From: Zootoca vivipara
Taxonomy: Eukaryota
Direction of reading: 5' to 3'
NCBI RefSeq assembly: GCF_963506605.1
Contig: NC_083281.1
Coordinates: 56,792,001-56,856,000 of the forward strand
Length of the DNA stretch: 64,000 nucleotides
Shown: piece after piece, positions 19,901 to 24,685 of the stretch
Numbering within the stretch: the first letter of the stretch is position 1
How the letters are laid out: every line of letters begins with the position of its first letter
Made by a program: the position numbers

Positions 19901-22900
19901 CTTGGCAGGGGGTTGGACTGGATGGCCCTTGTGGTCTCTTCCAAATCTATGATTCTGATTCCTATTTCTTTCCCATCATACATACCGATGCAAAGTCTAA
20001 CAAGACTACTCCCTGCTGAACATCACCTGTAATGGCAAGACGACCAACTTGTTCCCATCACCAACCAGCACTTGGTTTCTTCCCTCCGCATTCCTTTTTC
20101 CTTTCAAATCGTGCCTTTAGAGTGAGACCGTTGACCAGAGACTTTCAATATATTCCTTGGGGCAAAGTGCCATCTTGTTGGTATCCCTCAGAAAAAACTC
20201 CAGTCCTCTTATAGATAGCAAAATCTATGTCTTTTCCCACCCACCCCTTCTTACAGGTCTAAAATGCCAGAGAAAACGTTTTTCATTCCTTCTTCCATTC
20301 ACCTCATTGAGCTGCTTCCTTGATGAGGAAGTTATGCATTTGCCTTGAAGGCAAATGGTTCTACTAGATGTTCTGTGCAGTCTTGTTTCAAATTGTTTTC
20401 ATTATGAAATATAGTACTTTTGTACAACAATAAAATCCCTACCTTGGTAATTCACTTTAAATGTCTATGTCAAAAGACACTACTAGAGATCTTTGACCGC
20501 CTGTGTGTAGAGAAGCATCTCCACACACACACAACACCTGACAGTGATGTGCAGTGATGAGGCGGAAGAGGGAACTCATTTTCCAAGCAAGAGCCAGCTC
20601 ACTTCCAAGGGGTGCATTTAACTGCATTTCCAGCAATACACACAGAAGAAATGCAGCACCTTGGAACACCTACATTCCCTGAGGTCCTATTTAACTGAGC
20701 ATTTAGTACCCTCTTCCTTGAAACTCTATAGAGCTTTTTTGGCACATTACACCAACATTCTCTCAACAGCTCATAGAAGGCTGTCTCCCAAAGCCTGGCA
20801 GTTACTGTGGTCCCCAAAGGACAATTTTGCATTTCCAAGAACATTTGTCCAATAAAACTTTTTCTGTAGCCTAGTCCCACGCCCACCCCCCAGAAAGGAA
20901 GGCGAGATTTGAGAAACCTTTGAAGGAAGAGCTGCAAAACGGGGGCCCTCCACATGTAGTTCGCTCATCAGCCCCAGGCAACATGGCAAATGGTCAAGGA
21001 TGATGATTCTAGTACAGCAACATCTGGAAGGCCACTGCTTTAATGTGACAATTTTTTGAGCAACGCCCAACCCTCTAGGACTGCCATCCTCTGCTATGCC
21101 TACTTTAAGGGCCAGAAAGCACAATTATTGTAGGAATTGTGTTATTCAACACATTTGTACCCTGCCTCCTGCAGACATAGAGGTATCCTGTACTCAATGT
21201 GCAACTCCTCCGTTAGACTGGGGTTTAGGTACCAGCCTGTGTTAACAAAAGTGCAACATAGTTAAGTTTTCCCTTCACAAGGCTTTCCCTTCACAATAAG
21301 TCTGGACCTTCTTCCACTGTGGGAAATGGAGAGGAAGACGGGCCACTGTGTAAAAAGATCCTTCAGTTGAGGGCTGGGGATGCTCAACTCCCAGCTCCCA
21401 TCATCCTCAACACCTAGATGGCCACAGGTTCAATTTCCTTGCTTTACCAAGTTCTAAAACCTATGTCCACACCTGCACCAATGCAGGGGAACTGCCTGGT
21501 CCCCACTTCTGTCCTGTAAAGAACGTCTTCATGCCTTTAACGCTTTATTGCTCTCTTTCAAGGCTGCAGAACAAGCCCTTCTGAGTGGAAAACCCTTGCG
21601 CAAGGAAATGGTTTAAGTCAGGTGTAGGGGTGGGGAACCTGTGTTGGACTAGCTCCCATCAGCCTCAGACAGTGTAGCCCATGATAAAGGCAGCTGTAGA
21701 GTTCACAGGTGGGTCATATCTCATTTCCAGCAGTCACCAGAACTCCTGGCTGCCTCTTACAAGTGAAGGAGATGGTGGAGTGGTTAAAGCAGTGATTTTC
21801 AACCAGTATGCCGTGGCACCCTGGGGTGCCTTGAATGATGGGAAGGGGTGCTGTGGGCAACACTGGCCTCTGTCCCTCTTTCCTCCCCTTCCTCCTCTGA
21901 TGCCCTCTTGCGTCTCTGCCTCCCAAAGGCTTGCACAGCTGTTTGTTGCAGCATCCCTGCCTACAAGCTCCCCAGGCAAATGCTGCCTCTGGGGCTGGCC
22001 AGGGGGTGTGTCCCAGGCCCTTGTGGGGCAGTGTGAGGTGGCACCTCTCTTTGGGGCGGGGGGGGGGGGAGCAGCTCAGAGACCAGAGGTGGCAGCTGCA
22101 GCTGCCCAAAGGACTCCCAAGGAGAAGAGAGGAGGCTGAGGCAGCACTCCACAAGGGAGGGTGTTCAAAAAAAGGGTGAGGCTGCCAGCTCTGCAGGCAA
22201 GGGGTGACATAATCGGGCTTCTGAGCCCCACAGGGGTGCAACAGAAAGAATGTAGTTGGTCAAAGGAGCCGTGGACCCAAAAAGGTTGAAAACTTATGGG
22301 TTAAAGCAGGGGTCAGCAACCTTTTTCAGCCATGGGCCGGTTCACTGTCCCTCAGACCATGTGGTGGGCCGGACTATATTTTGGGGGGGAAATGAACAAA
22401 TTCCTATGCCCCACAAATAACCCAGAGATGCATTTTAAATAAAAGCACACATTCTACTCATGTAAAACCATGCTGACTCCCGGACCGTCTGCGGGCCGGA
22501 TTTAGAAGGTGATTGGGCTGCATCCGGCCCATGGGCCTTAGGTTGCCTACCCCTGGGTTAAAGGGTTGGACTACAATCTGGGCTGAAATCTCCACTACAA
22601 CCATGACTCAACTTTGGACAGTCAATCCAAAGTCTTAACCTTTCCTTCAGAGTTGCTCTGAGAACATTGAGGGGGATGACACCCTCCAGTACTACTTTGA
22701 GCTCCTTGCAGAAAAGGTGACCTTACTTCAACTCTGTGTCCCCTGAAGGGATACTTGTTTGTGCAAGGACTTGCCAACCTCCAACTCCCAGCTGTCTGAC
22801 CTACCATCATTAGTTGCCGGGGGCGGGGGGTAGGGAGGGGACCGAAGCCATCATCTTGCAGGTTCAGATTGCAACAGGAAAAGAGGCCTCGGTGCTGCCA

Positions 22901-24685
22901 TCTGTGTCTTGCCATACTCCCAACCCTGCTCATCCTATGAGGAAGAGGAATCTCAAAGCAAACACATTTCTTAGTCTTCGGGGATCCCCAAGGCTCTTTT
23001 TGCTGTGGTAGTGAAGAACAGACTTCTTCTGAATCTTGTTTGGACTCCAAAATCTCCACCTCCAGCAATCCAGCTAGTGAGCTTTGCATAATAATGGTTG
23101 CCTGGAAAATCACAAGAATCCCATTCCCCACTGCCCTGATTTCATCCTATCCTTTGTGAGAGCACAAAGCCCCATTCCCCACTGCCTCAATTTCATCCTG
23201 TCCTTCATGAAAGCAGCATTGCCAGCTGGACGCACATCAAGTCTCACTGGGGGGTGGATGAGAAAGGCAGCTGACCGCAGCTCCAGTCAACAGGACCTCA
23301 GCAACGAATCATTTGCTAGGACAGTATATGTCTAGAGAACTTCCTGTGGCTCTCGAAAGTGCTTCTGCCTGGCTCCCCAACCCCCCCCCCCGTCACGGAA
23401 CCCAACAGCGGGTGGAGACCCAGCTTCTGTTTCTGTAAGGCAAACAGGCTGGCAATGAGCTTTAGGAACTTTAGCCAATCATAGATGGGAACTCTAAAGT
23501 GTTTTCCCCTTCTTTGCTGCTCCTGGAATCCTACACATGCCCCCCTAATCCACTGACTTCTGCCCTAAAAACTTATCTCTTAGGGAGTTGTCATACTTTG
23601 GAATCTTGGCCTTCAAAAACAGAAATGTCCTCTGCTCAACGTCTATGCAAGGAGCTGCAAAACCAGCTACTAAAAGCAGGAAAGGTCTCATTAAACCGCA
23701 TGGTCTTTATTTTCAGTGCCAATATTACAGATACAACACAAACGTCCCAGGAGGAGAACGAATTCAAATGGAATCCAGGACTCTGACAGGCTCAGGAAAT
23801 GAAAAGGGCTGAGGGGGGAAAGCAGCTTTGCAGTGGAGTCTTGAGATGAGTCTTTCTGCAGGCAAATGGTGCCCCCCCTTTCCATCTTTAAGCAACACAC
23901 ATTTCCTTTCTACCCACCTACCACAGCTGACAGCCAAGGATCAGACAAGAGGAGTTCCAAGATTTGGGGTGGGGGGCACGCTGAAGAGCAACTTGCTGGA
24001 GGGAGCAGCCAGTCTCGTCCATCATGATGCTTTCTGAGAGGGAGGCACTGGCCAAAGAGGACTTGACGTTGCTGCCTCCGCCACTGAATCCTCCAAAGCA
24101 GAGCTTCTGTCCAGAACAGCAGGTCCACCTATCAATCCCCTTCTCAGACTCAAGCCACTGCCCTTGGGGTGTGCAGTCAAGCGTAGAAAAGGCCCCCCAT
24201 GTCGGGGAACTCCAAGGAGAAAGGGTCTCCAGCATCCTTGGAATACATTTCCAACATGAACTCTGGATGAAAAGTGCCTGAAGGTGGTAACCCGGCTAGC
24301 AAGGAGCCGAAACAAAACTCGCTTCACTCACTCACTCACTCGCCCACGCCCACCGGAGGAGAGAAGGTGGCAGGCGGGGAGAAACAGTCGCACATGCCAC
24401 AGTGCACCTCCCCTCCCCCCTATTCCAAAACAAGGGGAACGTGGCTTCTGTGGCAAGTGTGGCTCAGCAGCCAGGAGAGGAGAGAAGAGAGAGCGAGCCA
24501 GCAAGTGTCTTAAGAGATATGCTTCATCAAGGTGAGCAAGGCCAGTCCTCCTGCTCTGCAGCAGCCGCTGCTCTCGTCAGCTCCCCTGGCCATGGTGCAA
24601 GTGGGGGGATTTCTGGAGTCACAGCGCTCTGCCCAGCGTTCCTTCGGCCAACCAGGTGGGGTGAGGAGGGTGGGGCCAGAGCTCA

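What the first reader, a model, noticed from the sequence alone, without database searches (positions are those of the whole stretch)
20440..23690. PHLPP2 is missing from its usual position between MARVELD3 and AP1G1
Known: in human the large multi-exon PHLPP2 gene (PH-LRR-PP2C) lies between these genes. Seen: only about 3.2 kb separates the two candidate polyA signals, much of it MITEs, with no LRR or PP2C exons. Inference: lineage-specific loss or translocation of an AKT/PKC regulator.
Basis: partly seen in the sequence, partly recalled or inferred. Interest (0 to 1): 0.65.

Follow-up and report, generated by a model that had tools for sequence, protein, structure and literature searches.

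The report
PHLPP2 absent between MARVELD3 and AP1G1
The short stretch between the ends of the MARVELD3 and AP1G1 genes holds only transposon debris and no trace of PHLPP2, which fits a loss of this gene in lizards and snakes that was already published in 2025.

Summary
The window carries TAT, a MARVELD3-type MARVEL exon, AP1G1 (with SNORD71), ATXN1L and ZNF821 in the mammalian order. The one gene missing is PHLPP2.

- **Size of the gap.** MARVELD3 (+) and AP1G1 (-) end tail to tail. There are 5,102 nt between their stop codons and about 3.27 kb between the first polyA signals. The window has no N.
- **No PHLPP2 remains.** Six-frame read-through of the 5.1 kb against Pfam gave no LRR, PP2C or PH match. 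The same method recovered AP1G1 exons in the neighbouring 5.1 kb.
- **Rest of the window.** 420 ORFs of 60 aa or more outside the interval, and an LRR motif scan, also showed nothing.
- **"Much of it MITEs" is only partly true.** Two MITE-like insertions make up 758 nt, or 23% of the interval. One is convincing and one is weak.

PMC12002173 (PNAS 2025) already states that PHLPP2 was lost in Squamata, twice in turtles, and in caecilians. The same paper disputes that PHLPP2 is an AKT phosphatase.

I had no vertebrate genome collection and no reference PHLPP2 sequence. I therefore could not separate loss from translocation, or confirm the taxon. Novelty: already known. Interest is low. The only added value is support at the level of the locus itself.

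The parts
2553..4480 (-). TAT (tyrosine aminotransferase) exons, which form the left edge of the conserved gene block
   Evidence: Exon ORF 2553-2858 matches tyrosine aminotransferase 3pdx at 91.3 bits, E 3.8e-25. Pfam Aminotran_1_2 and TAT_ubiq E 3.3e-14.
18768..19580 (+). Terminal coding ORF of the MARVELD3-type gene. The MARVEL domain covers about 18966-19511 and the stop is at 19578-19580.
   Evidence: Pfam MARVEL E 3e-07, 31 bits, cut-off 32.8, residues 67-248 of 270. It is the only MARVEL match among the 420 ORFs scanned. The tail after the domain is about 22 aa, as Steed 2009 describes for MarvelD3 (PMC2805614). No PDB relative was found.
19690..19975 (+). CR1-like retrotransposon 3' fragment inside the presumed MARVELD3 3' UTR
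   Evidence: 19895-19961 matches 36481-36539 (-; 83% over 65 nt, E 3.8e-12) and 40536-40596 (+). The name CR1 is recalled from memory and was not given by any tool.
20429..20434 (+). First AATAAA after the MARVELD3 stop.
   Evidence: Hexamer scan. It lies 849 nt after the stop. No expression data were available.
20944..21035 (.). Fragment of a dispersed short repeat
   Evidence: Relaxed BLAST matches at 36846-36952, 58926-58996 and 8369-8407.
21790..22298 (.). MITE-like element A (509 nt). The assignment is weak.
   Evidence: Flanked by the same 8-mer at 21782 and 22299. The 15-nt ends match in inverted order at 11 of 15 positions, 9 of them contiguous. No Pfam match. Against: the fold is no better than shuffles (z +0.47), and no other copy lies in the window.
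22307..22555 (.). MITE-like element B (249 nt). The assignment is convincing.
   Evidence: Terminal inverted repeats of about 32-34 nt with one indel block. The element is flanked by the 8-mer GGTTAAAG at 22299 and 22556. It folds end to end: -50.2 kcal/mol, z -4.57, 0 of 200 shuffles as good. Its ends recur at 36544-36588 (96% over 45 nt) and 18337-18366.
23706..23711 (-). First AATAAA on the - strand after the AP1G1 stop.
   Evidence: Hexamer scan. It lies about 975 nt after the stop at 24683-24685. Further - strand signals at 21544 and 21039 could serve a longer 3' UTR.
24683..25755 (-). Last three coding exons of AP1G1 (gamma-ear): 24686-24784 plus stop, 25075-25221 and 25495-25755
   Evidence: Translation. 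Pfam Alpha_adaptinC2 at E 0.00018, 2.3e-07 and 1.6e-13. PDB gamma1-adaptin 1iu1 at 102.2 bits against gamma2 at 38 bits.
31239..31324 (-). SNORD71 snoRNA in an AP1G1 intron
   Evidence: Rfam RF00576, 65.8 bits (gathering score 34), E 1.9e-12, full length. It was the only Rfam match in the window.
41702..41992 (-). First coding exon of AP1G1
   Evidence: Pfam Adaptin_N positions 1-53, E 4.9e-10. Eight ORFs between 24.7 and 42 kb match Adaptin_N.
53595..55658 (+). ATXN1L single-exon ORF (687 aa)
   Evidence: Pfam AXH E 7.4e-40 and ATXN-1_C E 4.2e-15.
59622..60974 (-). ZNF821-type exons (STPR repeats and C2H2 fingers)
   Evidence: Pfam STPRs E 3.7e-06 and zf-C2H2 E 1.1e-06. The gene name comes from position in the conserved order.

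Best explanation
The interval is an ordinary, non-coding spacer between two genes that end tail to tail, MARVELD3 (+) and AP1G1 (-). PHLPP2, which sits here in mammals, is absent as a whole gene. No recognisable exon remains, and the flanking gene ends are intact.

The most likely history is that PHLPP2 was inactivated and removed, or decayed beyond recognition, in an ancestor of this lineage. The spacer then shrank to the few kilobases usual for this compact region, and short transposons later inserted into it. This matches the published loss of PHLPP2 in Squamata.

Shown here: local absence, conserved gene order, an uninterrupted sequence, and transposon insertions with intact target duplications.

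Inferred: the time and manner of loss, cover by the paralogue PHLPP1, and the taxon.
For: - **Gene order.** TAT, MARVEL exon, AP1G1 with SNORD71, ATXN1L and ZNF821 were each identified exon by exon. They lie in the order given for human and goat, where PHLPP2 sits between MARVELD3 and AP1G1.
- **No domains in the gap.** 0 of 6 read-through frames of 19581-24682 match LRR, PP2C, PH or any other family above noise at E <= 10.
- **Positive control.** The same method on the adjoining 5.1 kb finds AP1G1 exons: Alpha_adaptinC2 at 2.3e-17 and 0.0047, Adaptin_N at 3.2e-05 and 0.055. These came from 2 of 3 frames.
- **Rest of the window.** 0 of 420 ORFs of 60 aa or more outside the interval match LRR, PP2C or PH at E <= 0.1. 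The LRR motif scan gave 13 loose hits against 16.25 +/- 4.1 in 20 shuffles, with 0 tandem pairs.
- **Sequence integrity.** There is no N in the window. The 8-bp target duplications around the two insertions are intact, which argues for a locally coherent sequence.
- **Spacing is ordinary.** The spacer is 5,102 nt stop to stop. The other convergent pair, ATXN1L and ZNF821, is 3,963 nt apart by the ORF coordinates.
- **Literature.** PMC12002173 states that PHLPP2 was lost in Squamata, twice in turtles, and in caecilians (passages).
Against: - No tool could search this genome, or any other vertebrate genome, for PHLPP2. An intact copy elsewhere is not excluded by my own work.
- No tool established the taxon.
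- Pfam models applied to read-through frames miss some real exons. In the control, one frame that carries AP1G1 coding text gave 0 families. A badly decayed relic could therefore escape.
- The ORF scan of the rest of the window left out ORFs under 60 aa.
- MARVELD3 is named by position and architecture only, and its MARVEL score is just under Pfam's cut-off.
- The 3' ends are predicted from hexamers alone.
I cannot say how thoroughly absence was checked there.
Confidence: 0.8

Rival explanations
1. PHLPP2 was moved, not lost. An intact copy lies elsewhere in this genome and only the ancestral site is empty.
For: Nothing in my calls excludes it beyond the 64 kb of the window.
Against: PMC12002173 reports PHLPP2 as lost across Squamata from presence/absence profiling of gnathostomes. 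An intact moved copy would normally be annotated and counted as present. No PHLPP-type domain was found anywhere in the window.
Confidence: 0.06
2. Assembly artefact. The gene exists at this site but was collapsed or skipped when the contigs were joined, for instance because it is GC-rich or repeat-rich.
For: It cannot be excluded without reads. From memory, many 'missing' bird genes turned out to be hidden in sequence that is hard to assemble.
Against: There is no N anywhere in the window. GC in the interval is 47-51%, like its surroundings. Both flanking genes end cleanly with stop codons and polyA signals. The transposon target duplications are intact. The same absence is reported for the whole clade.
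Confidence: 0.05
3. The window is not from a squamate. It comes either from one of the other lineages already reported to lack PHLPP2 (a turtle lineage or a caecilian), or from a lineage not yet reported, which would be a further independent loss.
For: No tool confirmed the taxon. The paper lists at least four losses, so absence alone does not single out squamates.
Against: - The genes here are compact: AP1G1 coding exons span about 17 kb, 24.7-42 kb.
- Short transposons are dense and CR1-like ends are present.
- By recall only, these features fit a squamate better than a caecilian or a turtle.
Confidence: 0.08

Closest known systems
Published loss of PHLPP2 in Squamata (PMC12002173, PNAS 2025, Fig. 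7E and text; passages read)
   Same: The same gene is absent. The paper states it was lost in snakes and lizards, twice in turtles, and in caecilians, while AKT and PKC were kept.
   Different: The paper used presence/absence profiling across gnathostome gene sets. The window adds a view of the ancestral site itself: flanks intact, 5.1 kb stop to stop, and no exon relic.
Mammalian 16q22 gene block TAT-MARVELD3-PHLPP2-AP1G1(SNORD71)-ATXN1L-ZNF821 (gene lists in PMC5784682 and PMC10762050; passages read)
   Same: The order of all genes found in the window is the same. The tail-to-tail arrangement of MARVELD3 and AP1G1 also matches human; the human strands are recalled, not taken from a call. SNORD71 lies in AP1G1.
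   Different: PHLPP2 is absent, and no SNORA70-type snoRNA was found. The block is far more compact than the human one; the human size is recalled from memory.
MITEs with 8-bp target-site duplications (hAT-type, by recall)
   Same: Element B has terminal inverted repeats, an 8-bp duplication, a small size (249 nt), no coding capacity and a hairpin fold. Element A shares the same 8-bp duplication.
   Different: No repeat library was available, so no family name can be given. Element A has poor inverted ends (11 of 15) and no fold signal. Only end fragments of element B recur within the window.
MarvelD3 of non-mammals (Steed et al. 2009, PMC2805614; passages read)
   Same: There is one MARVEL-coding terminal exon and a short cytoplasmic tail. 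There is no long occludin-type C-terminal domain.
   Different: Mammals have two alternative MARVEL exons and this window has one. I had no direct sequence comparison with a named MarvelD3.

Membership tests
PHLPP2 gene (PH - LRR - PP2C protein) | Array of leucine-rich repeats | tested here: not met
   No LRR family in the 6 read-through frames of 19581-24682 at E <= 10, or in 420 ORFs elsewhere at E <= 0.1. The motif scan was at or below the shuffle level, with 0 tandem pairs.
PHLPP2 gene (PH - LRR - PP2C protein) | PP2C-type (pseudo)phosphatase domain | tested here: not met
   No PP2C match. The control shows the method can see neighbouring exons.
PHLPP2 gene (PH - LRR - PP2C protein) | PH domain | tested here: not met
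   No PH match.
PHLPP2 gene (PH - LRR - PP2C protein) | Direct similarity to a reference PHLPP2 or PHLPP1 sequence | not testable with these tools
Conserved block TAT-MARVELD3-[PHLPP2]-AP1G1-ATXN1L-ZNF821 | Flanking genes present in the same order | tested here: met
   TAT, MARVEL exon, AP1G1 gamma1, SNORD71, ATXN1L AXH, and ZNF821-type STPR and C2H2. The order is as.
Published squamate PHLPP2 loss | The window comes from a squamate | not testable with these tools
   No vertebrate sequence collection was available. A literature search for the end motif of element B found 0 papers. The repeat content is suggestive by recall only.
Published squamate PHLPP2 loss | No PHLPP2 anywhere in the genome | not testable with these tools
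   Only the 64-kb window could be searched.
MITE | Terminal inverted repeats | tested here: met
   Element B: about 32-34 nt with one indel block, and end-to-end pairing in the fold. Element A: only 11 of 15 positions. The gap-free repeat finder missed both.
MITE | Target-site duplication | tested here: met
   The 8-mer occurs 5 times on the + strand of the window. Three of those sit exactly at the three junctions: 21782, 22299 and 22556.
MITE | Many copies in the genome | tested here: inconclusive
   Within the window there are only two end fragments of element B (36544-36588 and 18337-18366) and none of element A. The genome could not be searched.

The most novel reading that the evidence does not exclude
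The window may come from a lineage outside those already reported to lack PHLPP2, which would make this a fifth independent loss. Failing that, it may be the first site-level evidence that the squamate loss removed the whole gene cleanly from between intact neighbours, rather than being a gap in annotation. Repeated clean losses of one PHLPP paralogue, with AKT and PKC kept, would add weight to the recent claim that PHLPP2 is dispensable and is not an AKT phosphatase.
Probability: 0.08. Interest if true: 0.4.

Novelty: already known. Interest (0 to 1): 0.15.

Why it matters
PHLPP2 has long been described as a brake on AKT and PKC signalling and as a tumour suppressor. A whole vertebrate order living without it bears on how essential that role is. 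That argument has already been made in print with this very loss (PMC12002173; PMC13358185).

This window adds only modest corroboration. At the gene's ancestral address the neighbours are intact, the sequence has no gaps, and nothing of PHLPP2 is left. This makes an annotation gap at this site unlikely. It opens no new question.

Tried and rejected
- **Whole-window X read-through in one alignment.** I did not repeat it. I scanned ORFs of 60 aa or more under the standard code instead. That leaves ORFs under 60 aa outside the interval unscanned by Pfam; only the LRR motif scan covers them.
- **Gap-free inverted-repeat finder on the interval.** It returned one weak internal pair and missed both sets of element ends, which contain indels. 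They were found by local alignment.
- **Tandem Repeats Finder on 19581-24682.** Only two trivial arrays were found.
- **tRNA scan.** 0 genes, so there is no evidence for a tRNA-derived SINE head.
- **PDB search with the MARVEL exon.** Only two rows, at E 0.45 and 0.47, so the name gained no support.
- **Literature search for the 15-nt end motif of element B.** 0 papers, so it gave no clue to family or taxon.
- **One literature search was badly framed.** It asked for any 2 of 6 terms and returned reptile papers without PHLPP2, so it was useless. One paper reading failed on a bad search term.
- **A second, alternative MARVEL exon hidden in the interval, as in mammals.** Rejected. There is no MARVEL match in the six frames, and Steed 2009 says alternative isoforms are found in mammals only.
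- **A longer AP1G1 3' UTR running through the interval, using the - strand signals at 21544 or 21039.** This is neither supported nor excluded without RNA data.
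Full report
**What the window holds.** I identified the genes exon by exon.

- On the - strand at about 2.5-4.5 kb lie exons of tyrosine aminotransferase. They match PDB 3pdx at 91.3 bits, E 3.8e-25, and Pfam TAT_ubiq at 3.3e-14.
- On the + strand, ORF 18768-19580 codes a MARVEL domain. Pfam gives E 3e-07 and 31 bits, just under the 32.8 cut-off. A tail of about 22 residues and a stop follow the domain.
- On the - strand AP1G1 runs from its stop at 24683-24685 to its first coding exon at about 41.7-42.0 kb. Eight ORFs match Adaptin_N.
- The AP1G1 ear exon matches gamma1-adaptin at 102 bits against 38 bits for gamma2. SNORD71 lies in an AP1G1 intron at 31239-31324.
- Further on come ATXN1L (687-aa ORF, AXH E 7.4e-40) and ZNF821-type exons (STPRs and C2H2).

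This is the order printed for human (TAT, MARVELD3, PHLPP2, SNORA70D, AP1G1, SNORD71, ATXN1L, ZNF821; PMC5784682, passage) and for goat (PMC10762050, passage). The single exception is PHLPP2.

I do not take the window for human. It lacks PHLPP2, is far more compact, and carries CR1-like and MITE-like elements.

**The observation.**

- MARVELD3 and AP1G1 end tail to tail, with 5,102 nt (19581-24682) between their stop codons.
- The first AATAAA after the MARVELD3 stop is at 20429-20434. The first on the - strand after the AP1G1 stop is at 23706-23711.
- Other polyA-like hexamers lie inside the interval: + strand at 20851, 22438 and 23690; - strand at 21544 and 21039. Without RNA data the true ends are open. 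In particular, AP1G1 might use a longer 3' UTR.
- The window has no N.
- The GC content of the interval (47-51%) is like its surroundings.

**Is anything of PHLPP2 left?** I read the 5.1 kb between the stop codons through in all six frames, with X at each stop, and scanned each 1,700-residue frame against Pfam at E <= 10.

- 0 of 6 frames matched LRR, PP2C, PH or any other family above noise. The only rows were HET-S (E 0.62) and BARF1_ig2 (E 0.2).
- As a positive control I ran the same procedure on the adjoining 5.1 kb (24683-29782, three - strand frames). It recovered AP1G1 exons: Alpha_adaptinC2 at 2.3e-17 and 0.0047, and Adaptin_N at 3.2e-05 and 0.055. One frame that also carries coding text gave nothing.
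- The method therefore sees real exons, including one of 33 residues, but not all of them. An ancient relic decayed beyond recognition would escape it.

**Is PHLPP2 elsewhere in the window?** The window has 455 stop-to-stop ORFs of 60 aa or more.

- I scanned the 420 that do not lie wholly inside the interval. The other 35 were already covered by the six-frame search.
- At E <= 0.1 the matched families were those of the genes named above plus scattered single weak rows. None was LRR, PP2C or PH.
- A simple LRR motif scan of all six frames of the whole window gave 13 loose hits against 16.25 +/- 4.1 in 20 shuffles. It gave 1 strict hit against 0.5, and no tandem pair.
- ORFs under 60 aa outside the interval were covered only by that motif scan.

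**What the interval is made of.** BLAST of the interval against the whole window found little.

- There were 2 matches at E <= 1e-3 and 10 at E <= 1.
- 19895-19961 is the end of a CR1-like element (the name is recalled). Like ends lie at 36481-36539 and 40536-40596.
- 20944-21035 is a fragment of a short dispersed repeat with copies at 36846-36952, 58926-58996 and 8369-8407.
- Two insertions lie side by side. The same 8-mer, GGTTAAAG, occurs at 21782, 22299 and 22556, exactly at the three junctions. It occurs only 5 times on the + strand of the whole window.
- **Element B (22307-22555, 249 nt)** has inverted ends of about 32-34 nt with one indel block. As single-stranded DNA it folds end to end (z -4.57, 0 of 200 shuffles as good). 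Its ends recur at 36544-36588 and 18337-18366.
- **Element A (21790-22298, 509 nt)** has poor inverted ends (11 of 15 positions). Its fold is no better than shuffles (z +0.47, 68 of 100 as good), and no other copy lies in the window.

Together the two elements are 758 of 3,251 nt, or 23%. 'Much of it MITEs' is therefore only partly borne out. Without a repeat library the rest is unclassified.

The gap-free repeat finder and Tandem Repeats Finder added nothing. No tRNA-like head was found.

**Interpretation.** The simplest reading is an ordinary intergenic spacer from which PHLPP2 has vanished.

- Its size is not odd for this region. The other convergent pair, ATXN1L and ZNF821, is 3,963 nt apart stop to stop by the ORF coordinates.
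- The intact target duplications and the lack of gaps argue against a local misassembly, but only spanning reads could prove that.

**What is already known.**

[quoted passage not shown] - PMC13358185 (Bioessays 2026; passages) says that at least one PHLPP gene is kept in all sequenced gnathostomes.
- My searches for PHLPP2 with 'squamat' (2 papers), with 'lizard' (4 papers) and with 'gene loss' (8 papers) turned up no other treatment.
- None of the passages I read describes the locus itself. The main text of PMC12002173 does not contain 'synten' or 'tblastn'.

**What stayed unchecked.**

The only genome collection on offer holds bacteria and archaea.
I also could not confirm that the window is from a squamate.
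- No reference PHLPP2 sequence was obtainable, so the test rests on Pfam domain models and a motif.
- The name MARVELD3 rests on position, on there being a single MARVEL exon, and on the short tail. Steed et al. 2009 describe these for non-mammalian MarvelD3 (PMC2805614, passages).

**Verdict.** The interpretation as loss is reasonable and agrees with the literature, but it is already published. Novelty: already known. Interest is low (0.15). The window's only contribution is a view of the empty ancestral site.

Noticed in passing
window 31239-31324 (-): A full-length SNORD71 snoRNA lies in an AP1G1 intron (Rfam, 65.8 bits). It is the only Rfam match in the window. The human gene list places SNORD71 next to AP1G1 too, while the human SNORA70D beside PHLPP2 has no counterpart here.
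   Followed up: partly
window 21782-22563: Two different MITE-like insertions sit side by side and share one 8-bp target duplication, present in three copies at the three junctions. This suggests two successive insertions into the same target, possibly inside an older SINE-like element (that last point is by recall only).
   Followed up: partly
window 19690-19975 (+); also 36481-36539 (-) and 40536-40596 (+): CR1-like retrotransposon 3' ends. One lies inside the presumed MARVELD3 3' UTR, with an upstream ORF fragment (19697-19888) that looks like the tail of a CR1 ORF2. The name is from recall; Pfam gave no match.
   Followed up: partly
window 18768-19580 (+): Only one MARVEL-coding terminal exon is present, whereas mammals have two alternative ones. 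This agrees with Steed et al. 2009, who found alternative isoforms only in mammals.
   Followed up: yes
window 42555-43560 and 48510-48918: ORF translations on both strands show the same odd arginine/histidine-rich text. This points to a shared repeat near the GC-rich 5' end of AP1G1 and again about 5 kb further on.
   Followed up: no
window 8369-8407, 20944-21035, 36846-36952, 58926-58996: A short dispersed repeat occurs at least four times in the window. Two of the copies give nearly the same ORF text (8380-8568 and 58938-59318).
   Followed up: partly
window 2600-2660 and 4900-4960: Dinucleotide microsatellites lie in and near TAT introns. They show up as CV/TH and RE/SL runs in the ORF lists.
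   Followed up: no
window 55659-59621: ATXN1L and ZNF821 also end tail to tail, 3,963 nt apart stop to stop. This shows that short convergent spacers are normal in this region.
   Followed up: yes
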